Shown here in pieces: positions 10,057-27,326 of a stretch of 64,000 nucleotides of DNA. The notes under the pieces were generated by a model. The model was not told where the DNA came from and did not search any database. It saw only the letters and a list, made by a program, of their open reading frames with translations. Position 1 is the stretch's first letter, and each line of letters begins with the position of its first letter. Made by a program: the position numbers and the translations under genes. Origin of the DNA: Alphaproteobacteria bacterium. Lineage in GTDB: Bacteria; Pseudomonadota; Alphaproteobacteria; SP197. The stretch is from assembly GCA_964291265.2 (NCBI GenBank), contig OZ219747.1:1600001-1664000 (forward strand), read 5' to 3'.

Positions 10057-10103
10057 CAACGTGTTCCTTCTTCAGGGATGGGAGGGATCAGCCACGACCT
10101 GCA

Positions 10104-11870
10104 TCACCCGTAGAGAGCATCGAGGCGGGCGCCGAAGCGCTCGCGCACGACATGACGGCGGATCTTGAGGGTTGGGGTCATCAACCTGTTCTCCACCGTG
10201 AAGGGTTCCGGCGCCACCATGATGCGCCTGACCTTCTCGATGGGCGTGAGGTTTGCATTGGCGCGGTCCACGGCCTCCTTCATGGCAGTGTCGAGAGCGT
10301 CATGACCGGCGAGGACGGCGAGGTCGGCGTCAAGACCCCTTTCGCGGGCGAATTCGGCAAGCCAGGTGTCATCGGGCACCACGAGCGCCACGAGATGGGG
10401 TTGACGATCACCGTCCACCATGCACTGGGCGATCTCCGGTTCCACGTTGAGGATGCCTTCCACCCGCTGTGGTGCGATATTGTCACCCCCGGAATTGACG
10501 ATGATGTCCTTCTTGCGGTCGGTGATGCTGAGGAAACCGTCATCGTCGAATTCGCCGATATCGCCGGTATGGAGCCAGCCGTCCCTCAGCGCCTCGCCGG
10601 TGGCCTGCGGATTGTTCCAGTACCCGTCCATGAGGAGGCCGCCGGCGACGAGAACTTCTCCGTCATCGGCAATCCGGACCTCGACCTCCGGGAGAGGCCT
10701 TCCCACGCTTGCCATCCTGGTGTGCCCGGGAAGGTTGCAGGAGACCACCGGTGCCGCCTCCGTCTGGCCGTAGCCCTGGAGCAGCGTGAGGCCGAGAGCC
10801 GAAAAGAACGTTCCGACCTCCGGATTGAGGGCGGCGCCTCCCGATATCATGGCCGTGAGGCGGCCGCCGAAACGGGCGCGCACCTTGTCGCGGACGAGCT
10901 TGTCAAGCACGCGATCCTGGAGGCGTTCGATGAGGCCGAGTGACTCACCCCTGAATCGCCTTCTTCCCAGTTCGACGGCCTTCTCGAAGAGTCGTTTCTT
11001 CATGCCGCCTTCGCGGGCAATGCCGGCGAGAATGCGCTGGCGCATCACCTCGTAGAGCCTCGGGACGCAGGTCATGATGGTGGGACGCGCCTCGGGCATG
11101 TTGGTGATGAGCGTGTCGACGCCTTCGGCGTAGCGGATTTCCGCACCGATCGAGATCGGGAAGAGGAAGCCGGCGGTATGCTCGTAGGCATGCGAGAGCG
11201 GCAGGAAGGAGAGAAAGGTGTCGATGCTCGACAGCATGGGCCTGACACCCATCCAGATGCTCTTGAGGTTCGACAGCAGCGCGTGGTGGGAGAGAATGAC
11301 CCCCTTGGGGAGACCCCCCGTTCCCGATGTGTAGATCAGGCACGCCGTGTCCTTGCGTTCGAGGGCGGCGATTCGCGACTCCACCTCGGCCGTATCGTCG
11401 GCCGAGGCATCGGACCAGGGAATCACCTTGACGTCACCGATGGCCGTGACCTTGTCCATGGCGATGACGCAGGCGACATCCGCGGCGGCAGCGGCGGGAA
11501 GGAAGGTGCGGGCCAGTCCTTCACCGGAGACGAACGCCATCGTCGCGCCGCTGTCCTTCATGAGATGTTCGTGAAGTTCACGGGTGTAGGTCGTGTAGGC
11601 GGGAACGGTGATGCCGCCTGCCGACATGACGGCAAGATCGGCCATGGCCCATTCCGGCCGGTTCTCCGATGCCAGGACAACGCGGTCACCGGGTTTCAGC
11701 CCGAGAGCCACCAGTCCGGCAGCAAGCCTGCGCACGTCTCGTGCGACCCTCTCCCAACTTCGCGGGCGCCATGTGCCGTCCTCCTTGGCCCACAGGAAGG
11801 GACGGTCGGCACACTGCTCGGCCATGTCGAAGAACATGGATGGGATGCCGGACCAGCTGTCGTACCGCAT
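10104..11870 (-). CDS. Long-chain fatty acid-CoA ligase (AMP-binding)
   Basis: IYTSGTGGLPKG, QGYGQTE, WLHTGDIG, DRKKD; GGAGG before the ATG at 11870. Confidence 0.93.
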   Translation of the reverse strand: MRYDSWSGIPSMFFDMAEQCADRPFLWAKEDGTWRPRSWERVARDVRRLAAGLVALGLKPGDRVVLASENRPEWAMADLAVMSAGGITVPAYTTYTRELHEHLMKDSGATMAFVSGEGLARTFLPAAAAADVACVIAMDKVTAIGDVKVIPWSDASADDTAEVESRIAALERKDTACLIYTSGTGGLPKGVILSHHALLSNLKSIWMGVRPMLSSIDTFLSFLPLSHAYEHTAGFLFPISIGAEIRYAEGVDTLITNMPEARPTIMTCVPRLYEVMRQRILAGIAREGGMKKRLFEKAVELGRRRFRGESLGLIERLQDRVLDKLVRDKVRARFGGRLTAMISGGAALNPEVGTFFSALGLTLLQGYGQTEAAPVVSCNLPGHTRMASVGRPLPEVEVRIADDGEVLVAGGLLMDGYWNNPQATGEALRDGWLHTGDIGEFDDDGFLSITDRKKDIIVNSGGDNIAPQRVEGILNVEPEIAQCMVDGDRQPHLVALVVPDDTWLAEFARERGLDADLAVLAGHDALDTAMKEAVDRANANLTPIEKVRRIMVAPEPFTVENRLMTPTLKIRRHVVRERFGARLDALYG

Positions 11871-12014
11871 CGTCGCCTCCATCCGCCGGGACAGGCAGGG
11901 ATCATACCGATGCCGGCGAAGCATCGGCAAGGACAGCGAGCGATCGTCCGCGTCGGCCATGACATTGTCAGACGAGGCGCCGGAGGATAAGGATGGTGTG
12001 CCGCAACCCGAAGG

Positions 12015-13796
12015 ATGCAAGGCGTGATCGAGGCATCCACTCTCCCTCGCTGGGATCTCTCGGATCTCTATTCCGGACCGGAAGATCCGGCGATTGCTGC
12101 AACCCTCGAGAGGCTTTCCGGGGAGGCGGATGCGTTCGCCAGGGACTACCAGGGGCGGCTTCAAGGACTGTCGACTCGGGCCTTCGCCGACCTCATCGAG
12201 CGATACGCGGCCCTCGTTGAGAGCATGGGCCGCGTTGAGAGCTACGCCGACCTGCTGTTTGCCGTCAACAGGAACGATGCCGGTGTCGCCAGACTGCACC
12301 AGATGGTCCGGGAACGGCTGACGGAGGCCAACACGGCGCTGGTCTTCCTGGGGCTGGACATCAACAGGCTTGACGAGGAGACGGTGAAGCGGCTGCTCGG
12401 CGATCCGGGTATCGCACGCTACCGGACCTGGTTCGAGGCCCTGCGCAGCTTCAGGCCGCATCAACTCTCTGACGAAGCCGAGGCGATGCTCAATGAACTC
12501 TCCGTCGTGCAGGCCGGCGCCTGGGTGCGCCTCTTCGATCAGACTATCGCTTCCCTGACCTTCTCGATCGATGGCGAGGACCTGTCGGAGGCAGAGGCGC
12601 TCGACCGTCTGTCCTGGGTCGACGCCGGGGTCAGACAGCGCACGGCGCGGGAACTCGCCGATGTCTTCAACCGGAACGCCAGGCTCTTTTCCCACATCAC
12701 CAACACGCTCGCCAAGATGAAGGCGATCGAGGACGGCTGGAGGTCGTTCACCCGGCCGATTTCCTCGCGCAACGTCGCCAACCTGATTGAGGATGAGACC
12801 GTCGACGCCCTCATCGGCGCCGTGCGCGAGGCCTATCCGCGTCTGTCGCACCGCTACTACGCCCTCAAGGCCGGCTGGTTCGGCGGTGACACACTCGACT
12901 GGTGGGATCGGAATGCACCCTTGCCCGGCATGGATGAGCCTTCATATGGGTGGGACGAGGCCCGCGACATCGTGCTCGATGCCTTCGGCGGGTTCTCGTC
13001 CCGCATAGCCGGTATCGCGGCGGACTTCTTCCAGAAGCGGTGGATCGACGCACCTGTCCTGCCGGGCAAGGATGGAGGAGCGTTCTCCCACCCGACCGTC
13101 CCCGCTGCCCATCCCTACATTCTTCTCAACTACCAGGGCCGGACTCGCGACGTGATGACGCTGGCCCACGAACTCGGCCACGGCGTCCATCAGGTTCTTG
13201 CCGCACCACAGGGTCCACTGCTGGCGCCGACACCCCTGACACTCGCCGAGACGGCATCGGTGTTCGGCGAACAGCTCGCCTTCCGGCATCTCCTCGAACG
13301 CGAGCACGATCCCCGGACCCGCAGGAGAATACTCGCCGGCAAGGTCGAGGACATGCTGAACACGGTGGTGCGGCAGATTGCCTTCTGCGACTTCGAGACG
13401 AGGCTCCATGACGCCCGGGCGGAAGGCGAACTGACCCCTGACGACATCGGTGATCTGTGGATGACCACTCAGTGCGAGAGCCTGGGGCCTGCCGTGCGTC
13501 TTGACGACGACTACCGCAGTTTCTGGTGCTACATTCCGCACTTCATCCATGCTCCCTTCTATGTCTATGCCTATGCCTTCGGCGACTGTCTCGTGAACGC
13601 CCTTCACGTGCTTCATCGCCAGGGCACGACCGGTTTCGAGACGATGTTCCTGGCCATGCTGGAGGCAGGGGGAAGCAAACATCATCGCGAGCTTCTCGCA
13701 CCCTTCGGACTCGATGCGACGAAGAGGGAGTTCTGGGCAGGGGGACTCCAGACGATCAGCGACATGATCGACGAACTCGAGGCAGAGACAGCGTGA
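12015..13796 (+). CDS. pepF: M3 family oligoendopeptidase F
   Basis: WDLSDLY, HELGHGVH zinc motif, AETASVFGE, YIPHF, FYVYAYAFG. Confidence 0.93.
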   Translation: MQGVIEASTLPRWDLSDLYSGPEDPAIAATLERLSGEADAFARDYQGRLQGLSTRAFADLIERYAALVESMGRVESYADLLFAVNRNDAGVARLHQMVRERLTEANTALVFLGLDINRLDEETVKRLLGDPGIARYRTWFEALRSFRPHQLSDEAEAMLNELSVVQAGAWVRLFDQTIASLTFSIDGEDLSEAEALDRLSWVDAGVRQRTARELADVFNRNARLFSHITNTLAKMKAIEDGWRSFTRPISSRNVANLIEDETVDALIGAVREAYPRLSHRYYALKAGWFGGDTLDWWDRNAPLPGMDEPSYGWDEARDIVLDAFGGFSSRIAGIAADFFQKRWIDAPVLPGKDGGAFSHPTVPAAHPYILLNYQGRTRDVMTLAHELGHGVHQVLAAPQGPLLAPTPLTLAETASVFGEQLAFRHLLEREHDPRTRRRILAGKVEDMLNTVVRQIAFCDFETRLHDARAEGELTPDDIGDLWMTTQCESLGPAVRLDDDYRSFWCYIPHFIHAPFYVYAYAFGDCLVNALHVLHRQGTTGFETMFLAMLEAGGSKHHRELLAPFGLDATKREFWAGGLQTISDMIDELEAETA

Positions 13797-15199
13797 CCGA
13801 CAGGGGCCTCAAGGACACCAACCGGTTGACCGGGCGGGCGGCGCGCTACGCGAAAGTCGGCGCAGCGGTCGGCCGCGTCGGCGCCAGGGCCATGACCGGG
13901 CGCGTCCTGGGAAGCCGTTCGGACAATGTCGAGATGGCGGTCAATCTCAAGAACGCGCTGGGCGGACTGAAGGGGCCGCTGATGAAGGTGGCGCAACTTC
14001 TGGCCACCATTCCTGATGTCCTGCCGCCGGAGTACGCCACGGAACTCGCCAAGCTGCAGGTCAACGCGCCGGCCATGGGGTGGCCGTTCGTACGCCGGCG
14101 GATGGCCGGTGAACTCGGCGCTGACTGGCAGGAGAAATTCACGTCCTTCGACCGCCAGGCATCGGCCGCCGCGTCGCTTGGCCAGGTGCACCGGGCGACC
14201 ACACCGGACGGCGTCGAGCGGGCCTGCAAACTCCAGTATCCCGACATGCAGTCGGCGGTGGAGGCGGATCTGAAGCAACTGAAGGTGCTGTTCGCGCTCT
14301 ATCACCGCTACGACAGGGCGATCGATCCAAGCCGGGTCTACGAGGAGATATCCGAGCGCTTGAGGGAAGAGCTCGACTACCGCCTGGAAGCGCGCCACCA
14401 GCGGCTCTACCGCGCCATCCTGGCGCAGCAGTCCAGGATCAATGTCCCGGCCGTCATCGACGAGCTATCCAGCGACCGCCTGATCACCATGGACTGGATC
14501 GAGGGGGTGCCGCTGATGTCGATGACCGAAGCCGACGCCGGGTCAAGAAACGAGATCGCGATGTCGATGTTCCTAGCCTGGTACGAGCCGTTCTACGGCT
14601 ACGGCGTCATCCACGGGGACCCCCATCCGGGCAACTACAAGGTGCGGCCCGACATGGGCATTCACCTGCTCGATTTCGGCTGCATCCGCATCTTTCCTCC
14701 ACGCTTCGTGACCGGAGTGATCAATCTCTATCACGCGCTCGGCAACGACGATCGCGATCTTGCCGTTCACGCCTACGAGACCTGGGGGTTCACGGGCCTC
14801 AGCGGCGAGGTGATCGATACCCTCAACATGTGGGCTGCCTTCGTCTACGCGCCCCTTCTCGAGAACCGGCCGCGGGTCATCCAGGACGAGGGGTCGCGCT
14901 ACGGGGCCCGGGTGGCATCGAAGGTCCATGCGCGCCTGAGGGAGCTGGGTGGGGTCACCGTGCCGCGGGAGTTCGTGTTCATGGACCGTGCCGCTCTTGG
15001 ATTGGGCAGCATCTTTCTTCATCTCAAGGCCGAAGTGAACTGGCACCGTGTCTTCCACAACCTCATCGACGGTTACCGGGAAGAGGATCTCGCCCGCCGC
15101 CAGACCCGAGCACTGGCCTCGGTCGGTCTGGGGGAGGGAGTGTCCCCGGCATTTGCCGAGGCAGCCGGAAACGCTGCGGGTCAGCAGATGCTTCCATGA
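13793..15199 (+). CDS. AarF/ABC1/UbiB kinase family protein
   Basis: LKGPLMKVAQ, AAASLGQVH, KLQYP, HGDPHPGN, LLDFG; GTGA overlap with the pepF stop. Confidence 0.92.
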   Translation: MTDRGLKDTNRLTGRAARYAKVGAAVGRVGARAMTGRVLGSRSDNVEMAVNLKNALGGLKGPLMKVAQLLATIPDVLPPEYATELAKLQVNAPAMGWPFVRRRMAGELGADWQEKFTSFDRQASAAASLGQVHRATTPDGVERACKLQYPDMQSAVEADLKQLKVLFALYHRYDRAIDPSRVYEEISERLREELDYRLEARHQRLYRAILAQQSRINVPAVIDELSSDRLITMDWIEGVPLMSMTEADAGSRNEIAMSMFLAWYEPFYGYGVIHGDPHPGNYKVRPDMGIHLLDFGCIRIFPPRFVTGVINLYHALGNDDRDLAVHAYETWGFTGLSGEVIDTLNMWAAFVYAPLLENRPRVIQDEGSRYGARVASKVHARLRELGGVTVPREFVFMDRAALGLGSIFLHLKAEVNWHRVFHNLIDGYREEDLARRQTRALASVGLGEGVSPAFAEAAGNAAGQQMLP

Positions 15200-15272
15200 T
15201 CCGTTCGCCGTCTGCACCGACGGCAGACAGACCGCTCATCGAACATGACCGCCCAGCAGGCAGGTCGCCCGG

Positions 15273-16955
15273 TCACGCGATCCATTCGCTCACGGGTGCC
15301 GCGCTCTCTTCAAGCGGCTGGGCGATGATATCGAGGAGCGCCGGTCCATCGTGATGCAGCAGGTCCTTGAGGGCGCCTTCGAGGTCACGCGATTCCGTCA
15401 CCCGCCGGGCCTTGATGCCGAAGGCTGCGGCAACGGCAGCATGATCCGTCGCCATGAAGTCGACACCGAAATAACGGCCGTTGAAGGAGGCCTTCTGGCC
15501 TGCCTTGATCCAGCCGAAGCCGGCGTTGGAAAGGACGATGAAGAGAATCGGCAGGCCAAGGCGCCGGACGGTCTCGAGTTCCCCTGCACTCATGGCAAAG
15601 CTGCCGTCTCCCATGACGGCCACGACCTGTCTTTCGGGCTGGGCAACGGCGGCGCCGATGGCCGCAGCGAGGGCGTATCCCAGTGCGCCATGAGCGCGGT
15701 TGGTGATGATGGAGCGGCCCGGCACGCGCACCTCGAAGTACGCCGCAACATAGGGGCAGGGCGTCCCGGCATCGGCGCACACGATGACATCGTCCGGCAG
15801 GGCGCGGCGCATCTCGACCATGATCCGTTCCGGCCGGATCGGTGCTCCGTCGCCCGGTCGTGCGAGTTGGCGTCTTCGCGCTTCCCGCACCGAGCGGGCG
15901 AGGCGGGCGCCGTGGTTGCGGACCGGTCCGTCGATGACCTCGAGCAATGCTTCCAGGGCGAGGCGGGCGTCGCCGTGAAGCGCCGCATCGCAGGCATAGT
16001 TGGCGCCGATCACGCCGGCATCGACATCGATGTGGATGGTCCGGGTTCCGGGATGCGGGAACTGCCAGCGTTCCGTGGTGACGGAGCCGGCGCGACAGCC
16101 GATGAAAAGGACGCAGTCGGCCTCGGCGACCGCGGCCCGCGTGGCCGGTATGCCGCCGTTGGATCCGACCACACCGAGTGACAGGGGATGGGTTTCGGCA
16201 AGGCTGCCCTTGCCGCTCACCGTGGTGGCCACCGCCATCCCGGTCCGCTCCGCCAGTGCGCCGAGGGCGTCCATGGCGCCGGACAGCAGGACCCCGCCAC
16301 CGCAGATCGCCAGGGGCCGTTCGGCACCGGCGACGATCGCGGCGGCACGCTCCGTCTCGCTGGCTGCCGGTGCTCCGGGGCGGCGATCGGACCGGGGGTC
16401 CGCCCGGATGCCGTCCGCCGGCACCGGCGCCTGCTGGACATCGAAGGGAAGCGATAGGTGAACGGCGCCCGGACGCCCGCTCGACGCCTCGCGAAAGGCC
16501 CGGCGGACGCCACGCGGCAGGGCGGCGCCTTCGTCGAGGATCGCGTTCCACTTGGTGACGGGCCGAAAGAGAGCTTCCTGATCGAGTTCCGTGAGGGTGA
16601 ACCGGCCGCGTGACGAGCGGGCGACGTCGCTGGTGATGGCCACCAGGGGGATCGCGCTTTCCTGGGCTTCGACGACTCCGGGAAGAATGTAGGTGGCGCC
16701 TCCGCCTGACGGTCCTTCGCAGACACCGACCCGGTCCGTGAGCTTGGCATAGGCGTCGGCCATGTAGGCGGCGTGACGTTCGTCGCGGACGAGAACATGG
16801 CTGATCGCATGATCAAGGCGAGCGAGAGCATCGTAGAAGGGAAGCGAGGTATCGCCGCACAGACCGAAGATGTGCCGCACGCCATGGAGCTCGAGCAGGC
16901 GCACCAGCGCCTCGGCGCCGTTGGGTTCGTTGCCTGATCCCGTGGTTCCCTGCAT
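15273..16955 (-). CDS. Thiamine diphosphate-dependent enzyme (acetolactate synthase-like)
   Basis: RDERHAAYMAD, GDGSF...N ThDP motif. Confidence 0.9.
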   Translation of the reverse strand: MQGTTGSGNEPNGAEALVRLLELHGVRHIFGLCGDTSLPFYDALARLDHAISHVLVRDERHAAYMADAYAKLTDRVGVCEGPSGGGATYILPGVVEAQESAIPLVAITSDVARSSRGRFTLTELDQEALFRPVTKWNAILDEGAALPRGVRRAFREASSGRPGAVHLSLPFDVQQAPVPADGIRADPRSDRRPGAPAASETERAAAIVAGAERPLAICGGGVLLSGAMDALGALAERTGMAVATTVSGKGSLAETHPLSLGVVGSNGGIPATRAAVAEADCVLFIGCRAGSVTTERWQFPHPGTRTIHIDVDAGVIGANYACDAALHGDARLALEALLEVIDGPVRNHGARLARSVREARRRQLARPGDGAPIRPERIMVEMRRALPDDVIVCADAGTPCPYVAAYFEVRVPGRSIITNRAHGALGYALAAAIGAAVAQPERQVVAVMGDGSFAMSAGELETVRRLGLPILFIVLSNAGFGWIKAGQKASFNGRYFGVDFMATDHAAVAAAFGIKARRVTESRDLEGALKDLLHHDGPALLDIIAQPLEESAAPVSEWIA

Positions 16956-17006
16956 CCTTGCCACGGTCCCGAAAATTCCGGGAACGTCAAGCACCGGAGG
17001 AGGGCG

Positions 17007-17661
17007 GTGATCGTCCAGGGGGCAAGGCCGTTTACGGGGCGGCTCCGGGTTCCCGCGCATTCCGGGCGACATGGGCCATGCCGGCACCTGGCCCTTTCCG
17101 GTGCTCTACCGGGTCGTGCGCGGCGCCTCGCCGGACCGGATGGTGCGGCACGACGCACCGGTTCTTTTCGAGGCCTTTCTCGCCGCCGGAAGAGAACCGG
17201 TGCGCGACGGAGCGGACGCCATCACCACCAATCGCGGCTTCCTCTCCGTCCTCCAGGAGCCTCTGGCGCGCCGTCTCGACGTTCCGGTCGCCGCGTCGTC
17301 CCTGATGCAGGTGCCGCTTGTGGCTGCCACCCTGCCGCCGCAACGGACCGTCGGCATCGTCAGCGTCTCGAAAGAATCGCTGACCCCCCGCGCACCTCGC
17401 TGCAGACGGCGCCCTTGCCGGGACCCTGCTCGGCAATCGCCCGGAGCTCGATGTCGCGGCAGCCCGCACGGAGGTGGTCGGGCGGCGATGGACCTGAAAC
17501 GCACCGTGCCCGGCCTTGGCGCCGTGGTGTTGGAATGCACGAACATGGACCCCTATGCCGCCGATATCCGCAAGGTCACCGGAGTGCTGGTCCACTCGAT
17601 CAGGACCTGCATGGCGTGGTTTCGCGTGTCCCTGGAACCAGCGCACTTCGCCCCGGCATGA
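17007..17661 (+). pseudogene. Asp/Glu/hydantoin racemase-like protein, degraded
   Basis: FPRIPGDMGHAGTWPFPV, AITTNRGF (the usual Cys is replaced), LECTNM. N-terminal GGKAVYGA is in another frame and the middle is scrambled. Confidence 0.7.
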
Positions 17662-18615: not shown

Positions 18616-19028
18616 GGGGTGGACTCCCGGTGTTCGTGTGGATGCTCATCATGAAACGCCACGGGACTGTCTGTCCACCCAGTTCGCCGAGCGTTACTCC
18701 GGACACATGACTGCTGGTGGCCTGGCAAGGATGCGTCGATTGCGGTCATAGATCGGACACTCTGACCTGATCACCTGAGGTGGTATGTCGCATATCCCAG
18801 GAAATCCACTGTTTTCCCGTGTTTCCGGCTGTTCCGGTGCGGATCTTGCTGAACAGGTGGTGACGGGAACATCCAGTACGTGACGTTCCGCCATGAGCCT
18901 GTCATGACGCCCTGCCCGCCGTTCCAGGGCGCCGATGCCACACGACACGGGTCGCGCCGTTGCCGGCGAGTGACCGCGCGGTCACGCCGGGGCCGTCGTC
19001 ACAGCACAAGCAGGCCAACTGGTGGAAT

Positions 19029-19251
19029 GTTGCCGGGTGCAAGCTCCGGCAGGAAGAGAGATGAACCACCACTTTCTCCGTGAACCATGCGTCGGGCGTC
19101 GTAAGGCGAAGCGTTGGTGAGCGGCAGGCGTGGGCCGGGCCATTGAGCCACGAAATGCAGTGAAACCGGAGTGCCGAGGTCGTCCGCTTGGCCGAAGGCA
19201 ACACCCTCGGAGTCGCGTTGGCGAGGCAAGCAGGGGCTCGGCGGGGTCCGA
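19029..19251 (+). ncRNA. Truncated 5' portion (domain I) of a group II intron
   Basis: GCCGGGTGCAAGCTCCGGC, GCGAAGCGTTGG, GTGGGCCGGGCCATTGAGCCACGAAAT, GGAGTGCCGAGG and CCGAAGGCAACACC occur in the usual order. No RT ORF or domain V follows. Confidence 0.55.
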
Positions 19252-19394
19252 GAGTTTGTTCCTTATGTCGTCGCTATGCCTATACTGCGCTTAGGTTGGT
19301 CTCAGCCCAAGCCATGGTACCTGACTACATGTGGTATTGTGTATCCAACAGAATACCATGATTCGTGATCACCCGCGACTTTAGGAACAAATTC
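19252..19394. mobile_element. 143-bp MITE-like element with terminal inverted repeats
   Basis: Left GAGTTTGTTCCTTATGTCG versus right CGACTTTAGGAACAAATTC (16/19 complementary). Second copy at 1583-1716. Confidence 0.6.
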
Positions 19395-19441
19395 ACATGC
19401 CTCGACATCGCTCATCGGCAACGGGGCACAACGACGAAAGA

Positions 19442-20755
19442 ATGAACGTGTCAGTGGATTCATCCCGGCTTGTCGCTTCGCTGCACCATCTCGGGGCCGC
19501 GCTCGATCTCAAGACAATCGATCTCTGCTTCCTCGCTGCCCTCTACGCCCGGGGCAACCAGCAGGGCCTCAGCGCCCTGGAAGACGAAGACATGGTCGCC
19601 GTGTTCGAGCAGGTCTGCGACCTCGTCGAGCCCGGCGCCGAAAACCCGCGCAGACGGGCGACGCTCGCTATCCAGCGTCTGCGCGAACAGGGTCTCCTCG
19701 CCCGCATCGACGGCGATGGACTGGCCCGGCCCGGTGATTACAGCCTGACGCTCCTGTCCACCGGCATCGTCGAGTTCTTCATTGCCGATAGCCGCGACAT
19801 TCTCGACAGGGACTCCCTCGACCTCCTCACCGGCCAGGTCATAGCCGCTCTCACCGAGGTCCTGAGCGCAGCCCGCCAAGCGCGGACCGGCCAGGAGCGG
19901 GCCGATGCCGTCGTCGGTCCGCTCCGAATCACTGTCAGGGACCTGGTGACGGGCATCGACCGCCGCCAGCGTGGCCTGGAACGCCAGCAGGAGGACCTCA
20001 AGGCCCGCATTTCCGACCTGCTGGCCAAGGACTGGTTCGCGGCCATAGATGAATGCGAGGGTCTGCTCTCGGATTCCGCCAGAGCCCTCGCCGAACTGAA
20101 GACAGTGCTGCTCAGCCGGGTCCACCAGATGCAGGGCCTTCTCCAGGACATCGAACAGGTGGCCGAAGACCAGGACTTCCCCGGAGCCGCCCAGGAGGCC
20201 CAGGAGGTCGCCAGCCATCTCGACCGCATCGCGGCCTGGGGCAATGCCCGCCAGAAGTCCTGGTCCGACTATTACGAGTACATCCATGGCTATCTGCGCG
20301 ATGTCGTGCGCCTGGACCCAGACCGGGCCCTCAGCGAACGCCTGCGCGACCAGGTTGCCGGCTGGCCAGGCAACCGGTTCTTTCTGATCATCCCGCAGCC
20401 GCAGCCCATGCGGGTCCTGCGCGATATGGAGACCCGTATTGAGCGGCCGCCGGTCGTCCGCCCGAGCAAGGACCGCGAGGCCGACCTCGACGACGTGCCG
20501 GACGGCCCGGACCCCGCCGAAATCGTGCAACGGGCCACCGACGCCCTTGCCCGATCACCGGACACGCTCGCAAGCGTGGTGCGCGAGGTCCTGGCCGGGC
20601 TCGACGAGAACCGGCGCTACCCGGCGATTGGAGAGGTCGCAGCCCTGGTCGCAGAGCGTGCCGCGCTGCCGCCCGGCAAGGACCGCCCGTGGGTGACGCT
20701 ACCCGGCGGATACGAGATCGAGGACTGGCCACTGCGCCGGGAGGCCGGGAAATGA
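19442..20755 (+). CDS. mukF: MukF-type kleisin (alternative start 19397)
   Basis: LCFLAAL...RATLAIQRLREQGLL...YSLT..G, ISDLLAKDWFAAIDECEGLL, LDRIAAWG and LDPDRALSERLR parallel E. coli MukF segments. Confidence 0.88.
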   Translation: MNVSVDSSRLVASLHHLGAALDLKTIDLCFLAALYARGNQQGLSALEDEDMVAVFEQVCDLVEPGAENPRRRATLAIQRLREQGLLARIDGDGLARPGDYSLTLLSTGIVEFFIADSRDILDRDSLDLLTGQVIAALTEVLSAARQARTGQERADAVVGPLRITVRDLVTGIDRRQRGLERQQEDLKARISDLLAKDWFAAIDECEGLLSDSARALAELKTVLLSRVHQMQGLLQDIEQVAEDQDFPGAAQEAQEVASHLDRIAAWGNARQKSWSDYYEYIHGYLRDVVRLDPDRALSERLRDQVAGWPGNRFFLIIPQPQPMRVLRDMETRIERPPVVRPSKDREADLDDVPDGPDPAEIVQRATDALARSPDTLASVVREVLAGLDENRRYPAIGEVAALVAERAALPPGKDRPWVTLPGGYEIEDWPLRREAGK

Positions 20756-21421
20756 GCGAAGAGAGGTTCCGGCGCCTGGAAGACGTCGTCACCGACTCCC
20801 TCTTCGCCGAGGTCGATATCGGCCTGCGCCGGGGGCGGCACATCAACGCCCATGATGGGGAGCAGTACGGGTTCCTGCGCGATGCGCAGGCTTGGTTGGA
20901 GGACTTTTATGGCCGGTACGATTGCGAGCTGCGCCATGCCGCGGACGGCTACTTCCACCTGGTCCCGTGCGGAGACCGGCTCGGCCGCGCCCGGCTGTCC
21001 GAGGCCGAGATGCTCGTCGGCCAGACGCTCGCCCTGTTTTACCTCGATCCCCGGATCGCTAGCGTCGGCGGCGTCCTGAAGGACGACGAGCTGGTCCGCA
21101 GACTTGAAGCCCTGGTCGGCAGGGGACGGCTGATCTCCGAACTCCGGGGCGGACGCCAGAAACGCAGCGCGGAGAGGGTCGATGAGGAGGGCGTACGCAA
21201 AGCGGTCACGCGCCCTGCGCAGCCTGGACGACCTCGGGTTCGTGGCTTACTCGGCGGACGAGCACGAGATCCGGCTGTATTCGGCCCTGCTCCGGTTTGC
21301 GGAACCGGTCCGGTCGCTTGAGGATCGGTCCCGGGCTCTGGAACGGCTGGTCGCCGAGGGCTCGGTCGAGACCGTCGACACCACAGATGACGACGCCGAC
21401 CTTGCGGAGGAGGAACCATGA
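20752..21421 (+). pseudogene. mukE: MukE-type KITE subunit, frameshift at about 21208
   Basis: LFAEVDIGLRRGRHI, FLRDAQAWLEDFYGRY, LSEAEMLVG. The C-terminus RALRSLDDLGFV...LLRFAEPVR is in a shifted frame. ATGA overlaps on both sides. Confidence 0.85.
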
Positions 21422-24400
21422 AACTGGCCTGCAAACGGGTCAGGGCGGCCCAGCTTGCCCTCGTCAACTGGCGCGGTGTGTTCTACGAGCGCTACGAGCT
21501 CAGCGGCACCGTCACCGCTCTGGAAGGGGCGAACGGGGCCGGCAAGACGACGGTCCTTATCGCCGCGTTCGTCGCCTTGCTTCCCGATATGAACCATCTG
21601 CGGTTCACTGCGGCTGGCTCGGGTGGAGACCGCGGGATCTGGGGGCGTCTCGGCGAGGCGGGACGACCGGCCTACGCCGTGCTCGACTTCGCCCTCGCGA
21701 ACGGCGAGCGCTTCCTCGCCGGCGTACGCCTGGAGCGGCGCGCCGAGCCGGCCGTGGAACTGACCCCGTTCTTCATCGAGGACTTTCCGCATGGCGCGCG
21801 GCTCCAGGATCTCCTGCTCCTGCGCGGGACCGAAAAGGACGCTGTCCCGGAGATAGATGAAATCCGGGCGCAGGCCGGCCGCCACGGAGCGAACTTCCAT
21901 GTCTGTGCAACGGCGAAGGAATATTTCGGTGCTCTGTTCGATCGCGGCGTGTCCCCGCTGCGCCTCGAGCGCGAAGGCGATCGCCGGAAGTTCGCAGAGA
22001 TGCTTCGCACCAGCATGACCGGTGGAATGTCGCAGGTCCTGACCACCGGGCTGCGCGCCTTCCTGTTGAAGGAGGAAGGCGGTCTCGCCGCCACTCTGAA
22101 GCGGATGCGCTCCACTATCGACGCCTGCCGGCGCACGCGCGCCGAAGTCGATGACACCCGCAGGCTCGAGGCTGAGATATCCCTCGTCTTGGAGGCGGGC
22201 CAGAACATGTTCCGGGCCGCTGCCCAGGCCACCGAACAGGCCGCCGAGGAAGCGGCCGGAGGCATCGCCGAGGCCGAGGAGGCGCTGCGCCTGGCCGAGC
22301 ACCAGGTCACCGCCGCCGACACGGAACTCGATTCGACCGAAAAGGAGGCCCGCGCGCTTGGCGAGCGTCTGAAGACGCTCGCATCCGCCCTGAAGCAGGC
22401 CGAGGAGCACCGCGGGCGGCTGGAGACCGGGCGCGGCCAGCAGGAGCGCATCGAGCGGGTCGGCGCGGAGATCGAGACCCTTTGTCAGACCCATGGCTGG
22501 GACGGTGACATTCACGCTGACGGCTATGTCGACGTCCGCCGCCGGACGTTGTCCGGCCAGCGCGACGAGGTCCGTGACGAAGCTGCCCGGCTGGAAAAGG
22601 CGCGCAAGGAGACCGAAGCCCGGCTGCGTTCCCTCCAGCAGGCCGGCGGCAGTTTGCCGGCCGCCATCCGCGCCATCGCGGCCCGCCTGGGTGTGCCGAC
22701 GGCCGTGGAGAGGTTCGAGGATATCGCGATCGGCGATGCCGGTGCCCGGCAGGCCCGGCTCGGCCCGCTCGTCGAGGCGGTCCTGGTGGACGACCCGCAG
22801 GCCGCCGCCCGGACCGTGGCTGAAATCGAAGACCGTCCTGACACGGTCTGGCTGGCCCGCCCGGAGGCTCTGGACGGAGGGAAGTCAGGAGACACCGCGC
22901 AGGCTGGCTCTGCCAGCGGTTCCGTCATCGTCCAGAGCGGTCCGGACGTGGTGCGGGTGAGCCGGATCCCGGACCAGCCCGTGCTCGGGCGCCGGGCTCG
23001 CGAGACCCGCATCCGGGCTCTCGAAGACGAATTGGCCCGCACCGCCGCCGAAATCCGGGCTCTGGAGGGCCGGTTCGCCGCTCTTGACCGCGAACGCGAC
23101 GCTCTCGACAGTCTCCAGAGGAAGCAGGCCGATATCACCGCCGCCCGCAACACGCTTGCCGGACTCGGCATCGAGAATGCGGGCGAAGCGGCCTTGGCGA
23201 GCGCCCGCGAACGCCTCGACGAGTGCCGCCGCAGCCACGGCGAAGCCGACAGTCTGTCGCGCAAGCTGCAAAGCCGGCAAGCGGTGCTTCAGCACAGTCT
23301 GGAACAACGGCGTCAGGATCACACCCAAGCCCGTCAGGCCCTGAACGAGCGTCGTGCGACCGCAGAACCCGCGCGGCAGCGCTGGGAGCGTCTGCGCGCC
23401 GAGGCCGACGGCCTGCTTGCCGGTCTGTCCGGTGCGAGGGAAGCGCAGCGGGCCGCCGTGCGCGGCAGCGTCGCACTGTATGGCGAAGCACGCGCCCATG
23501 CCGAGAGGCTTCACGAGCGTCTCACCCGTGCCGAGCCAGGCGGCGAAGCCGCCAACGTGATCGACGGGCTTTTCCGTCTTGAGGACGGAGCCCGGTCGGG
23601 TGTGGCTTACCTGCGCGCCTGGCGCGAGGTGTGCGTCTGGATTCAGCGCCGCGTCCCCGCTCAGATCGCCCAGATGGACGACCCTCTGGAGGCGCTCACG
23701 AGGCTCCGCAGCCAGCTGGGTGATCTTCAGGATCGTCTCGTGCGCCAGGAAGCCGACCTTCAAGGCAACACAGCTGACGTGGCCAATGTGATCGGGGTGC
23801 ATATCCGCGGGGCGGACCGGGAGGTCGCCAAGCTCAACATGGACCTCGCCGGGGTCCGGTTCGGCAGCATTGCCGGGGTCAGGCTGCGGCTGGGCCGCGT
23901 GTCGGAGATGATCAACATCTTGGACGCCCTCCGGGAGAGAGAAGACCAGGGCAGCCTGTTCGCTGCCGATCGTCCCCTGGAAGAAACTCTGGACGACCTC
24001 CTCCATAAATATGCGGGCGGGCGGGCGCAGGGAGAGCGGCTGCTCGATTATCGCGAGTATGTCGACCCGCGCGTCGAGGTCCAGCGGAATTCCGGGATCG
24101 ACTGGGAAGCCGCAAACCCCAACCGCCTCTCAACCGGAGAGAGCATCGGAATCGGGGCGGCCCTCATGATGGTAGTGCTCACGGCATGGGAGCACGACGC
24201 CCGCCCGTTCAAGGCCCGGAGCGCTGAAAGCACGCTCAGGCTTCTCCTTCTCGACGAGGCGAACCGGCTTGACCGCGACAATCTTGGAATGCTCTTCGAC
24301 CTCTGCGCCAGCCTCGACCTTCAGCTGCTGGTAGCGTCCCCCGAGGTCGTGCGGGCGGAAGGCAACACGACCTACCGCCTGGTGCGCGTAGCCGACGGCG

Positions 24401-24453
24401 AGCGCGGCGGAGAGGTCCGGGTCACCGGCCGGCGCGCTGTCCGGGCCGCGTGA
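21418..24453 (+). CDS. mukB: MukB-type SMC ATPase, short-armed (1011 aa)
   Basis: LVNWRG, Walker A GANGAGKT, MukB-type hinge (ERFEDI..DA...LGP...VSRIPDQPVLGRRARE), LLDYREY, signature LSTGESIG, Walker B LLLDEANRLD. Confidence 0.92.
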   Translation: MKLACKRVRAAQLALVNWRGVFYERYELSGTVTALEGANGAGKTTVLIAAFVALLPDMNHLRFTAAGSGGDRGIWGRLGEAGRPAYAVLDFALANGERFLAGVRLERRAEPAVELTPFFIEDFPHGARLQDLLLLRGTEKDAVPEIDEIRAQAGRHGANFHVCATAKEYFGALFDRGVSPLRLEREGDRRKFAEMLRTSMTGGMSQVLTTGLRAFLLKEEGGLAATLKRMRSTIDACRRTRAEVDDTRRLEAEISLVLEAGQNMFRAAAQATEQAAEEAAGGIAEAEEALRLAEHQVTAADTELDSTEKEARALGERLKTLASALKQAEEHRGRLETGRGQQERIERVGAEIETLCQTHGWDGDIHADGYVDVRRRTLSGQRDEVRDEAARLEKARKETEARLRSLQQAGGSLPAAIRAIAARLGVPTAVERFEDIAIGDAGARQARLGPLVEAVLVDDPQAAARTVAEIEDRPDTVWLARPEALDGGKSGDTAQAGSASGSVIVQSGPDVVRVSRIPDQPVLGRRARETRIRALEDELARTAAEIRALEGRFAALDRERDALDSLQRKQADITAARNTLAGLGIENAGEAALASARERLDECRRSHGEADSLSRKLQSRQAVLQHSLEQRRQDHTQARQALNERRATAEPARQRWERLRAEADGLLAGLSGAREAQRAAVRGSVALYGEARAHAERLHERLTRAEPGGEAANVIDGLFRLEDGARSGVAYLRAWREVCVWIQRRVPAQIAQMDDPLEALTRLRSQLGDLQDRLVRQEADLQGNTADVANVIGVHIRGADREVAKLNMDLAGVRFGSIAGVRLRLGRVSEMINILDALREREDQGSLFAADRPLEETLDDLLHKYAGGRAQGERLLDYREYVDPRVEVQRNSGIDWEAANPNRLSTGESIGIGAALMMVVLTAWEHDARPFKARSAESTLRLLLLDEANRLDRDNLGMLFDLCASLDLQLLVASPEVVRAEGNTTYRLVRVADGERGGEVRVTGRRAVRAA

Positions 24454-25441
24454 TGTGGGACCGGGATGAGAACAGGCTTGCGCTGGTCGAGCTGGTTCAC
24501 GAGGGACGTCTGAGCCTCCGGGAGGGATAGAGAGCCGCATGGGAGTTTGCCGCCGGTCTTCGCTGGACCAGGACCACGGGCCGACGCAACGAACTCAAGC
24601 TTGTCCCTGCGCTCCGGGCCGATGCCGAGGACATGCTCGACGGACGCTGGCCCGAATGGCGCGCCGTCCGGGCGCGACTGGTCGATGCCGGCCTGCCGGT
24701 AACCCACGAGGGCTGGAAGCGCCTCCGGGATCAGGACCGGGCCTCCCGGGCCGGGGTTCTGCCGGGGCGCCTCAACGCCAGGACGGCGGCCGCCCTGGTC
24801 GGGCCGCACTCGAAGGCCGGGCTCACCGGTGCGCGCCGTGCGGGTCTCGACGGCATCGAGCTCACGGATGATGGCATCGCGCGGCTTCGTCCGAACCGGG
24901 GCCTGATTCTCCAGACCGCTTCCTGTCGGGTTGCAGCGTCCCTGCTCGTTGGGGTCGCGGGCGAGGTTGCGCTGAACGAAAGGGCGCTCCGGGACGGCAC
25001 CCGACTCGCGGGGGACCGCCCGCGCGCGGTTCTGACCGTCGAAAACCTCGGGCCGTTTATGGACATCCAAGCATCTGCCGACTGGATGGTCGTTCACGTC
25101 CCCGGATGGAACACCGCCACGGCCATGCGGGTTCTGGACCAGGTTGAGGACACCCCCCTGGTTCATTTCGGCGATCTGGATCCTGAGGGGGCCCGGATCG
25201 TGGGACACCTGAGGCAGCGCTACCCTCGGCTGCATGGGCGGCGCCAGACTTCTGGAGGGAATGTCTGCCGGATCGAGCACAACGCAAGCTATGGCCCGAT
25301 GGCCTGGATCTCTCCGGGGCGCCCGGCCTCGTGCAGGACCTGCAGCACCAAGGACTGTGGCTCGAGCAGGAGACAATCACCCTGGATCCGCGGCTACCGG
25401 GAGCCCTCGAGGCGTTCGCGCTGTCTGGAACCTGTTTCTGA
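24453..25441 (+). pseudogene. JetD/MksG-like TOPRIM nuclease (about 329 aa restored); amber at codon 26 and frameshift at about 25234
   Basis: TGATG overlap with mukB; VLTVEN, PGWN, HFGDLDPEG. C-terminal LWLEQE is in a shifted frame. In-frame TAG at 24528-24530. Confidence 0.8.
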
Positions 25442-25444
25442 ACG

Positions 25445-25550
25445 GGGGGTCTGGCTGCATGGGGAGTGGTATCCCCACTTCCACTGCCTCGTTCCCAACG
25501 GCGGCTTCAACATCAACTCCGGAGCGTGGAAGGCGGGGCTCCCATTCCTC
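25445..25550 (+). mobile_element. Small fragment of an IS91-type HUH transposase
   Basis: WYPHFHCLVPNGG resembles the IS91 HPHLHxLVPGGG motif. Confidence 0.45.
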
Positions 25551-25587: not shown

Positions 25588-26469
25588 TTAACAGTGCCCG
25601 TTGCCGGGTTGCCAGTAGACAATTTCCATCGGTAAGTTCTTCGAGTCGCACCTTGATTGCTTGGGAAGAGTTTCAAATTGACTCAACCATCCCCTCTTGG
25701 CGGTTACCGCCGCTGCCAGTGCGTCAATCACGTCAGTTCTACCAACACCCTTTCCAGACAAACTGACACGGCCGTCCTCAACTATATGCTTTGACTTTTT
25801 CTCGACCCTATGAAGGGCATCGAGTCGCTCCTTTTTCCCTTCGGTTTTCCTCTTCCTGTGCAGCATGGGTCTTCCATTGTTCAGTGCGAAAAAGCAGATT
25901 TCAGGATGTGTTTCCCTGACCCTTGGGCCATCAGGGCGCGGCAACAAAACATCAACTTCGGCAATTTTATCTGCGATTGCCAATGTTTGTGCAGAAAGGG
26001 ATTTCCCTGTGACTTGACGCTGAATACTCCTGGCGACTGCATGGCGAATTTGCCTGGCTATCTGGCGCCTGGCATCCTGAGCGATATCTGGCTTCAATTG
26101 CTTGTATGGCATCGCCTTCATGACTTGATATAGGTGACATTGGACCGCCTCGATGATATCTCCACAACAGGAAAAGTCCTGATAATACTTGATAACGGCT
26201 CTGACAGGAGTCGGGAAGACGGTGGACCCCCTTCCGTGCCCGCTCTGATTCAGCAATTTCCTGGCTTGCTTGTCACAGCACCTTTCCTCTCCACCATCTG
26301 GCAATCCAATTGGGATATCCACCAAGATGAGTTGGGCGCTCTTGTAGTGTTTCAGCAAGTTGTCGAATCTGGAAAAAGTTTTTAACTCATAGTTTTCATT
26401 GGAATCAAGGCCGACGCTGAACCAGCCGGCGGGACATCCGTCCACTCCCACAAACTGACTGTCGGGCAT
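25588..26469 (-). CDS. DUF429 (predicted RNase H-like nuclease)
   Basis: VGVDGCPAGW, VDIPIGLP, CDKQARKLL, VFPTPVR, ETHPEICF, DVIDAL; GC visibly lower than the flanks. Confidence 0.85.
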   Translation of the reverse strand: MPDSQFVGVDGCPAGWFSVGLDSNENYELKTFSRFDNLLKHYKSAQLILVDIPIGLPDGGEERCCDKQARKLLNQSGHGRGSTVFPTPVRAVIKYYQDFSCCGDIIEAVQCHLYQVMKAMPYKQLKPDIAQDARRQIARQIRHAVARSIQRQVTGKSLSAQTLAIADKIAEVDVLLPRPDGPRVRETHPEICFFALNNGRPMLHRKRKTEGKKERLDALHRVEKKSKHIVEDGRVSLSGKGVGRTDVIDALAAAVTAKRGWLSQFETLPKQSRCDSKNLPMEIVYWQPGNGHC

Positions 26470-26567: not shown

Positions 26568-27326
26568 ATGCACTGCGCGAGTCATGACGAAAGGGTAGTG
26601 GCACCATCGTACGTGCGGTTGCACCACTCGTGGCCTCCCATCCCGGGGGATGTCTGGAAAGTACGGCGTGAAATCCGCTGCATCTTCAACGACGCCGTCG
26701 CCCTCCTCACCGCACGCTCCGGCGGCAAGGGGCCGAGAACATCGCCACACTGCGAGGAAGCCTGGCACGCCGTACGCCACTACCTCGCCCATGACCGCCG
26801 CCTGCCAGACCGTTGCCTGGACGCTTGCCGACAGCACGGCCTCGTCGCCGCCGACGAACGCAGAAACGCCGTCTTCACATGCACCAACGCACAAAGAGAT
26901 ATCTCCGGCGCCGAGATCGTCGGTACCGTCCCCAACGCAGACGGAAAGCAGTACAGAGCCATGGCGCGTGGATCACGCAAGGCCGCCGGCAGCTTCTGGA
27001 TCCCCGTGGACCGCTCCATGCCACGCACCATCATCATCACCGAAAGCGCCATCGACGCCCTCTCCGCATGGTGCCTCAAGGAATGTCGGCAATCCGCTAC
27101 CGTGATCCTGTCAACCGCCGGCATCGCTTACCGTCTCCCAACATGGGCCGAAGCCTGGACGCCAAAGCGCATCCTCGTCGCCTTCGACGCCGATCCCGTC
27201 GGAGAACAGGCCGCCGAGCGCCTCGTCAGCCAAGACCCAAGAGCTCTCCGCATGAGACCCCCAGACGGACACAAAGACTGGAACGACGTCCTCAAGGCAC
27301 GAACACCAGCCTTCCCTTCCAAGTAG
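26568..27326 (+). CDS. DUF3991 + Toprim protein (plasmid/ICE-type), start uncertain, possibly 5'-truncated
   Basis: VRHYLAHDRRL, NAVF, GAEIVG, ESAIDALS, STAG, AFDADPVG, KDWNDVL. Confidence 0.75.
   Translation: MHCASHDERVVAPSYVRLHHSWPPIPGDVWKVRREIRCIFNDAVALLTARSGGKGPRTSPHCEEAWHAVRHYLAHDRRLPDRCLDACRQHGLVAADERRNAVFTCTNAQRDISGAEIVGTVPNADGKQYRAMARGSRKAAGSFWIPVDRSMPRTIIITESAIDALSAWCLKECRQSATVILSTAGIAYRLPTWAEAWTPKRILVAFDADPVGEQAAERLVSQDPRALRMRPPDGHKDWNDVLKARTPAFPSK

What the first reader, a model, noticed from the sequence alone, without database searches (positions are those of the whole stretch)
19442..25441. MukBEF-clade SMC operon coupled to a JetD-like TOPRIM nuclease: Wadjet-like system in an accessory island
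Seen: four genes joined by ATGA, ATGA and TGATG overlaps. The first three match E. coli MukF, MukE and MukB segment by segment (LLAKDWFAAI, LRRGRHI, LVNWRG, LSTGESIG, the MukB hinge) rather than looking like generic JetABC/MksBEF. The fourth has TOPRIM motifs VEN, GDLDPEG and LEQE. No smtA precedes the operon, and it sits among mobile debris in a probable alphaproteobacterium. Known: canonical MukBEF is a nuclease-free chromosome organiser of certain gammaproteobacteria, while Wadjet JetABCD uses an SMC plus JetD to cut circular plasmids. Inference: a horizontally acquired anti-plasmid system bridging Wadjet and housekeeping MukBEF. I cannot tell whether this variant is already catalogued.
Basis: partly seen in the sequence, partly recalled or inferred. 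Interest (0 to 1): 0.9.

Follow-up and report, generated by a model that had tools for sequence, protein, structure and literature searches.

The report
Broken short-armed MukBEF-type Wadjet operon
This is a recently broken copy of a four-gene operon that pairs relatives of E. coli's chromosome-folding proteins MukF, MukE and MukB with a JetD-type DNA-cutting enzyme, likely a plasmid-defence machine; the family is already listed in a 2025 dataset, but this branch's MukB is about 460 residues shorter and lacks the 'elbow' that E. coli MukB needs.

Summary
In detail: mukF-, mukE-, mukB- and jetD-like genes overlap as described. This copy is dead. mukE has a frameshift, and jetD has a stop codon and a frameshift. 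Run X1 carries all three breaks; a ~98%-identical strain (X2) and L001 lack them. The family is not new: Bürmann 2025 Data S1 lists at least 10 Muk-like 'FEBG' operons, and this scan found the kind at least 7 times on other DNA. I found no experimental test of it in the papers searched. JetD follows MukB in 35 of 71 related loci, often among other defence systems; the host keeps its own Smc and ScpA. A plasmid-cutting Wadjet-group system is the likeliest reading (~0.75). It is not canonical MukBEF's sister (AU p=0.0002). What is distinctive is the MukB: 1011 aa against ~1475, with matched gaps in both arm strands (E. coli ~363-614 and ~825-1031) that remove the elbow. The short form is shared by 23 proteins in one clade under purifying selection; it was not in the Data S1 rows I saw. 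In passing, a second nuclease-less branch sits among housekeeping genes. Verdict: new variant of a known kind.

The parts
19041..19256 (+). Group II intron D1-D4 remnant just upstream (mobile debris, not part of the system)
   Evidence: Rfam RF02005, 111.6 bits, E=2e-31; up to about 29 similar stretches elsewhere in the genome
19442..20755 (+). mukF-like kleisin, 437 aa, intact (an upstream ATG at 19397 is out of frame in L001)
   Evidence: Pfam KicB and MukF_M; NCBIfam MukF 281 bits; 93-94% identical to L001; 2-nt indel at 19406 against L001; dN/dS 0.21
20752..21421 (+). mukE-like KITE subunit, broken by a 2-nt gap near 21209 (223 aa in L001)
   Evidence: Pfam MukE on both pieces; gap located against L001; the break is in an X1 contig with 0 differences and absent from X2, X3 and X4
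21418..24453 (+). mukB-like SMC ATPase, 1011 aa, intact, with Walker A, signature and Walker B motifs and a MukB-type hinge; short arm lacking E. coli-equivalent ~363-614 and ~825-1031, including the elbow
   Evidence: Pfam MukB and MukB_hinge; NCBIfam 653 bits; deletions mapped; all 7 PDB sequence hits are MukB; Foldseek top 7 are MukBEF
24453..25441 (+). jetD/mksG-like TOPRIM nuclease gene, broken by TAG at 24528 and a 1-nt gap near 25234 (329 aa in L001)
   Evidence: Pfam JetD_C; model of the L001 protein pLDDT 95, best folds MksG 8b7f and JetD 7til; acidic residues invariant in 106 of 106 aligned homologues; breaks seen in X1 and absent from X2
25588..26463 (-). DUF429 gene with low GC (0.50), convergent neighbour; not shown to belong to the system
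   Evidence: Pfam DUF429 E=4e-45; GC and GC3
26568..27326 (+). DUF3991-Toprim ORF of a repeated mobile element (flanking debris)
   Evidence: Pfam; six further copies at ~97% protein identity in the genome

Best explanation
The operon is a broken copy of a Wadjet-group (MksBEFG) system whose motor belongs to the MukBEF branch, and its intact alleles likely destroy small circular DNA such as plasmids. Shown: gene content and order; conservation of the nuclease gene and its metal-binding residues; defence-island neighbours; a separate host Smc-ScpA; patchy distribution; the three breaks. Inferred from Wadjet I and II biochemistry: MukF-MukE-MukB forms a dimer of motors that loads on DNA and extrudes a loop using ATP; on a small circle the two motors meet and switch on the JetD dimer, which cuts the DNA, while the chromosome and linear DNA escape. 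The MukB of this branch most likely arose from a ~1475-aa nuclease-coupled ancestor by matched loss of ~250 and ~208 residues from the two arm strands. That would give an elbow-less arm of roughly 24 nm (estimate) on a MukB-type hinge, predicted still to extrude loops and cut but to pass DNA-bound obstacles poorly. In this strain mukE and jetD were inactivated recently.
For: JetD-like gene directly after MukB in 35 of 71 loci with at least 1 kb of downstream room and in B. pyrrocinia pBPJTT next to CBASS-type genes, a WYL gene and IS21. Specific PADLOC hits (Gabija, Lamassu, Druantia, AbiE, HEC-01, CARF, PDC systems; E<=2e-20) beside 12 of 29 JetD-bearing loci (11 of 24 after merging near-copies), against no specific hit in 60 proteins from 27 JetD-less loci. 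E197, D241, D243, E305 and E307 invariant in 106 aligned homologues; four of them align to MksG E236, D279, E349 and E351. Fold closest to MksG and JetD. Host Smc 757 bits and ScpA present. dN/dS against L001 0.21-0.38 per gene, 0.5 in the arms. Short clade nested among long forms by three starred branches. The predicted helix runs unbroken across the C-strand junction, residues 526-582. [quoted passage not shown]
Against: No activity has been measured for any member in the papers I searched. About half of the related loci (36 of 71) lack JetD, so the motor has uses without a nuclease. Most of the JetD-less loci are close kin, so the neighbour contrast is not 27 independent cases. No IFDR motif in the MukE-like N-terminus, so how the nuclease docks is unknown. 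The window's own flanks hold no recognised defence system. The AU test does not reject a tree with the short form basal (p=0.27), so the direction of the arm change is not established. The MukB model is low in confidence overall (pLDDT 63, pTM 0.37). Elbow point mutants of E. coli MukB are null (bioRxiv 464701). No RNA run was available to show expression.
Confidence: 0.75

Rival explanations
1. The operon is an auxiliary chromosome organiser (a MukBEF-like back-up to Smc-ScpAB), and the TOPRIM protein is inactive or serves in decatenation or repair rather than defence.
For: All three core genes score best against Muk families. A sister branch without JetD sits in a fixed housekeeping neighbourhood. 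Wadjet motors are thought to extrude on the chromosome too (bioRxiv 2025.03.10.642339).
Against: Not found in 21 of 21 other genomes of the genus searched; broken here while intact in near-identical strains; defence neighbours in JetD-bearing relatives; catalytic residues invariant; no cmoM linkage.
Confidence: 0.08
2. It is a defence system, but its main target is circular phage DNA or another mobile element, or it kills the infected cell, rather than clearing small plasmids.
For: Neighbours are mostly anti-phage systems. The SMC-like Lamassu system acts on phages and plasmids (PMC10586767). The short arm may change which DNA is recognised.
Against: The architecture (kleisin, KITE, hinge-type SMC, JetD) is that of Wadjet; types I and II cut circular plasmid DNA. 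Defence islands mix system types.
Confidence: 0.12
3. The short-armed MukB is a decayed, non-working form that lingers in host-associated bacteria rich in insertion sequences.
For: This copy and L002 are broken; several short-clade clusters include fragments; the elbow is essential in E. coli MukB.
Against: 22 full-length short proteins of 1010-1060 aa, down to 52% identity, keep the ATPase motifs and the same arm length; dN/dS below 1 in every region; L001 is intact in all four genes.
Confidence: 0.05

Closest known systems
Muk-like 'FEBG' operons listed in Bürmann et al. 2025 (PMC7617805, Data S1): Sorangium cellulosum So ce56 and So0157-2, Bradymonas sediminis, Pseudomonas aeruginosa NCMG1179, Thiococcus, Plasticicumulans, Sulfurifustis, Salmonella SPB7, two Vibrio
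   Same: Gene order F-E-B-G, Muk-type head motifs, short MksG of 315-340 aa by coordinates. A Sorangium JetD is 51% identical to the L001 JetD (P0227); a Sorangium MukB is 46% identical to the window's.
   Different: All 10 rows seen have a long MksB (1445-1527 aa by coordinates); the window's clade has 1010-1020 aa and lacks the elbow region. The window's copy is broken.
Canonical MukBEF (E. coli cmoM-mukF-mukE-mukB)
   Same: Same three protein families and order, MukB-type hinge, 27% identity over 975 aligned MukB columns.
   Different: Has a nuclease gene, no cmoM, coexists with Smc-ScpA, is accessory, lacks the elbow, scores below the NCBIfam cut-offs, and is not the sister group (p-AU 0.0002).
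Wadjet types I-III (JetABCD/MksBEFG/EptABCD)
   Same: Kleisin-KITE-SMC-TOPRIM nuclease in four genes; JetD fold and catalytic residues; defence-island context.
   Different: No PADLOC JetA hit; JetB marginal (E=9e-4); JetC no better than E. coli MukB scores; JetD models match only the C-terminal TOPRIM part; no IFDR motif; SMC shorter than the JetC-containing frames fetched here (~1120-1250 aa).

Membership tests
Wadjet/Mks group as defined by Bürmann et al. 2025 | Co-directional consecutive genes for MksF (400-1200 aa), MksE (150-800 aa) and MksB (>890 aa with Walker motifs) | tested here: met
   437, 223 (intact in L001) and 1011 aa; Walker A at 37, signature at 904, Walker B at ~945. mukE is frameshifted in this copy.
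Wadjet/Mks group as defined by Bürmann et al. 2025 | Flanking MksG/JetD TOPRIM nuclease with the conserved acidic metal-binding residues | tested here: met
   JetD_C hit; E197/D241/E305/E307 align to MksG E236/D279/E349/E351; fold matches 8b7f and 7til. The gene is broken in this copy.
Wadjet/Mks group as defined by Bürmann et al. 2025 | ATP-dependent cleavage of circular, not linear, DNA; plasmid restriction in vivo | not testable with these tools
   Needs bench work
Wadjet types I-III (PADLOC/Doron) | JetA, JetB and JetC match the type-specific profiles | tested here: not met
   JetA none; JetB E=9e-4 on the intact L001 protein; JetC 68 bits against 57 for E. coli MukB
Wadjet types I-III (PADLOC/Doron) | Type I JetB IFDR motif that docks JetD | tested here: not met
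   Absent from the N-termini of 40 aligned MukE-like proteins of the family
Wadjet types I-III (PADLOC/Doron) | JetD N-terminal DUF3322 (CAP) domain | tested here: inconclusive
   Precomputed Pfam for the homologues lists JetD_C but no DUF3322; Foldseek aligns over most of the chain to MksG/JetD but with high rmsd
Canonical MukBEF | MukF, MukE and MukB above the NCBIfam equivalog cut-offs | tested here: not met
   281/407, 86/250 (5' piece only) and 653/699 bits
Canonical MukBEF | No nuclease gene; cmoM (smtA) upstream | tested here: not met
   jetD-like gene present; cmoM absent here but found in 9 of 15 canonical loci, none of which has JetD
Canonical MukBEF | Long arm with an elbow (near residues 427/970; Y416, L960) | tested here: not met
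   Both positions fall in gaps in 23 of 23 short-clade proteins; a long Sorangium relative keeps both
Canonical MukBEF | Replaces Smc-ScpAB as the host's condensin | tested here: not met
   Host has Smc (757 bits, over cut-off) and ScpA; ScpB was not searched
Canonical MukBEF | MatP/matS unloading, Topo IV and ACP binding | not tested
   A glance at recalled residue numbers was not reliable and is not used

The most novel reading that the evidence does not exclude
Intact alleles (L001, strain X2) encode a working plasmid-cutting machine built on a naturally elbow-less, roughly half-length MukB with a MukB-type (channel-less) hinge. That would break the published pattern that channel-less hinges go with long arms, and give a natural minimal MukBEF motor with a built-in cleavage read-out for testing loop extrusion, the role of the elbow and obstacle bypass. 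The same family also holds a second nuclease-less, housekeeping-embedded branch, lost independently of E. coli's, which may be a parallel domestication of a defence motor.
Probability: 0.55. Interest if true: 0.62.

Novelty: new variant of a known kind. Interest (0 to 1): 0.45.

Why it matters
The idea that MukBEF is a domesticated Wadjet is in print as a hypothesis (PMC10586767; bioRxiv 2025.03.10.642339), and nuclease-bearing Muk-like operons are listed in a supplement, but I found no test of one. A MukBEF-type motor coupled to a nuclease gives a simple cleavage assay for MukBEF loop extrusion. The short-arm branch adds a natural deletion of the elbow, which is essential in E. coli MukB yet dispensable in engineered JetC, so it bears on models of how SMC motors move and pass obstacles. 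Standard defence finders would miss these systems or call them 'MukB'. The copy in this window is itself only a recent pseudogene.

Tried and rejected
1. 'The short MukB is a lesion of this genome': rejected. L001 (1012 aa) and about 20 other proteins share the length. 2. 'The frameshifts and stop are assembly errors': rejected. X1 contigs match the window with 0 differences across all three sites; X1 may be the source sample, so this rules out an assembly slip but is not a second occurrence. 3. 'Nearest relative of canonical MukB': rejected. 4. 'One loss of the nuclease explains all JetD-less members': rejected under LG+G4 (p-AU 0.0002). 5. Rooting with 5 JetC sequences did not fix the direction of the arm change (p-AU 0.27, long branches). 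6. Complex prediction of the MukE-like dimer with JetD gave no verdict. 7. No relatives in viral contigs (0 of 20 candidates); among plasmids only B. pyrrocinia is of this family (1 of 17 records). 8. No RNA holder listed. 9. No sigma-70-like promoter match in 18900-19500; uninformative. 10. The genome-contig scan used the single protein and found only 2 loci. 11. Whether the lineages branching closest to canonical MukB (P0365, P0384, P0364) carry JetD could not be read: no genomic context was available. 12. The tree file in Data S1 was cut and figure images are not held, so I could not see how the authors drew this clade; Petrushenko 2011 and the journal version of Bürmann 2019 were not held. 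13. The wide VIA-align search did not run. 14. The deletion lengths do not clearly fit the 91-aa arm period of B. subtilis Smc (PMC5344682); inconclusive.
Full report
Observation. The four genes, their overlaps and the quoted motifs are in the sequence. Pfam gives KicB and MukF_M for gene 1, MukE for both pieces of gene 2, MukB and MukB_hinge for gene 3 and JetD_C for gene 4. NCBIfam Muk models score high but below their cut-offs. PADLOC Wadjet models give nothing for JetA or JetB and only 68 bits for JetC, about what E. coli MukB gets (57 bits). All 7 PDB sequence hits of the L001 SMC are MukB.

State of this copy. Against L001, an intact copy 89% identical over 6.0 kb in a record titled Alphaproteobacteria MAG, the window has a 2-nt gap in mukE near 21209, a TAG at 24528 and a 1-nt gap near 25234 in jetD. 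Contigs of run X1 match the window with no difference across all three sites, so they are not assembly slips; X1 may be the source sample. Run X2 holds an allele about 98% identical with none of the three breaks, and X1 also holds a second, roughly 90% identical variant without the two jetD breaks. The inactivation is therefore recent and strain-specific. dN/dS against L001 is 0.21 (F), 0.27 (E, 5' part), 0.38 (B) and 0.30 (jetD, 5' part).

Host context. The genome is 100% complete, has its own Smc (757 bits) and ScpA, and has no other JetD_C match. A strong MukB N-terminal match occurs in 1 of 41 genomes, the window's own; the other 7 matches are weak P-loop stretches. The JetD query hits 0 of 400 other genomes of the class. 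The operon lies between a group II intron remnant and multi-copy mobile repeats. Its GC and GC3 equal those of the host smc, so transfer is argued from patchiness, not composition.

Family. A metagenome scan kept 80 of 295 confirmed loci. With L001 and L002, 71 have at least 1 kb downstream of MukB, and 35 of these carry a JetD-like gene directly after it. A profile of 106 JetD homologues added only two loci whose contigs end at the start of the gene. In those 106 proteins E197, D241, D243, E305 and E307 are invariant; four align to the metal-binding and proposed nucleophilic residues of C. glutamicum MksG (PMC10123090 passages). The AlphaFold model (pLDDT 95) is closest to MksG, JetD and Topo VI-A. 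At least 8 of the 21 other full-length short MukB entries have JetD beside them: L001 directly, and 7 by sharing a contig length with a JetD hit (indirect).

Neighbours. I scanned 97 of 169 predicted flanking proteins from 29 JetD-bearing loci, dropping short and duplicate ones. Specific defence hits at E<=2e-20, leaving out generic kinase and ABC-ATPase matches, occur at 12 of 29 loci (11 of 24 after merging near-copies): Gabija, Lamassu, Druantia, AbiE, HEC-01, CARF proteins and PDC candidates. The B. pyrrocinia pBPJTT copy sits beside nucleotidyltransferase, ThiF, JAB, SAVED and WYL genes, a CBASS-type set, and IS21. Of 143 flanking proteins of JetD-less loci I scanned 60 from 27 loci; only generic sigma-54, ABC and oxidase matches appeared, and Pfam shows housekeeping genes. 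Most JetD-less loci are close kin, so this is a contrast between branches, not between independent cases.

The short arm. The window's MukB has 1011 aa. Twenty-two entries of 1010-1060 aa head the homologue list, followed by ~1474-aa forms named from Sorangium, Polyangiaceae, Phycisphaerae, Deferrisomatales and others. Among the best 150 representatives at 50% identity, one full-length entry (P0016) has the short form. Alignment puts the missing parts at E. coli ~363-614 and ~825-1031. Pairwise junctions wander within the coiled coil, but the totals hold at about 253 and 209 residues. The elbow of E. coli MukB lies near 427/970, and Y416 and L960 mutants are null (bioRxiv 464701 passages). Both positions are gaps in 23 of 23 short-clade proteins. 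The published elbow construct pairs 333 with 1053 and 526 with 893, so the two gaps are roughly in register (inference). The model has a continuous helix across the C-strand junction and ends a helix at the N-strand junction, but its overall confidence is low. From the published 580 A for MukB and 1.5 A per residue (recalled) I estimate an arm of about 24 nm, shorter than E. coli JetC (295 A). PMC12647877 (passages and section 13) reports that MukBEF hinges lack a channel, that such hinges tend to go with long arms, and that a JetC without the elbow-to-hinge segment still cuts plasmids but cannot bypass obstacles. The short clade looks like an exception to the first pattern and a natural test of the second; that its hinge is channel-less is inferred from the MukB_hinge match.

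Phylogeny. A 200-row FastTree and a 50-row IQ-TREE of head segments (460 columns, LG+G4; 3 rows dropped for a missed Walker B pattern) place the short clade with P0031/P0036 (100/100), inside long forms that include JetD-bearing loci (99/94, 98/80). Canonical MukB sits far away at the end of a ladder of unplaced MukB-like proteins. Short plus canonical as one clade is rejected, and so is one clade of all nuclease-less members (both p-AU 0.0002). A tree with the short form basal is not rejected (p-AU 0.27), because the JetC outgroup is too distant. I favour deletion from a long ancestor (about 85%) on the nesting and the low diversity of the short clade.

What is known. Bürmann et al. 2025 (PMC7617805; passages, supplementary figure legends and searched rows of Data S1; the tree file was cut and figures are not held) place MukBEF inside the Wadjet group and map nuclease loss. 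Motif searches of their alignment gave 13 Muk-like SMCs. I looked up 12: 10 are FEBG with MksB of 1445-1527 aa and 2 (E. coli, Endozoicomonas) are FEB. The motif search was not exhaustive. Six literature searches (listings and abstract starts) showed no experimental study of a Muk-clade FEBG system and no report of a short-armed MukB; most subscription papers and bioRxiv supplements are outside the library. The domestication hypothesis is stated in PMC10586767 and bioRxiv 2025.03.10.642339 (passages). This scan's notes report the long-armed kind at least 7 times on other DNA, nothing for the short-arm words and no look-alike of this sequence.

Verdict. It works like a Wadjet (inferred, 0.75) and meets the published sequence criteria for the Wadjet/Mks group. 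It is not a member of PADLOC types I-III and not canonical MukBEF. The kind is catalogued but apparently untested; the elbow-less short arm is the new variant; this copy is a recent pseudogene. Interest 0.45.

Noticed in passing
L029, L031, L032, L035, L036, L040, L045, L046, L048, L050-L055, L060-L063, L066, L068, L072, L075, L081 and others: A JetD-less branch of the same family (20 of 22 complete JetD-less loci in one clade, support 0.95; 98/92 for 7 rows). Many have a MukB tail ending like QGAFRFES, a long acidic MukE tail and fixed housekeeping neighbours (acyltransferase, flavin oxidoreductase, sigma-54 regulators, Omp85). One origin with canonical MukB is rejected. It may be a second domestication into a chromosome organiser; hosts unknown.
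   Followed up: partly
L104 (Burkholderia pyrrocinia pBPJTT, 10011-17405): Intact long-armed FEB plus DUF2220 operon on an 880-kb plasmid record, next to a CBASS-type cluster, WYL regulator and IS21.
   Followed up: partly
P0384 cluster, P0365, P0364, P0380: MukB-like proteins, including some from Pseudomonas umsongensis and relatives, branch closest to canonical MukB; their neighbours could not be read.
   Followed up: partly
L002 6161-11083: Another broken short-arm operon: mukF, mukE and the first ~285 codons of mukB are not found in the locus, while jetD is intact.
   Followed up: no
window 26568-27326 and genome: A DUF3991-Toprim element present in 7 near-identical copies, plus over 40 weaker copies of a related element; the genome shows a large expansion of mobile repeats.
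   Followed up: no
window 25588-26463 (-): Low-GC DUF429 gene convergent with jetD; a weak IS91-type transposase trace lies near 25465-25535.
   Followed up: no
genome C2, ARAGORN list: Nine 101-nt 'tRNA-Arg(acg)' calls scattered over the chromosome look like a repeated element rather than true tRNAs.
   Followed up: no
run X1, window 19500-25400: A second variant of the operon, about 90% identical and without the jetD breaks, occurs in the same run at similar depth.
   Followed up: partly
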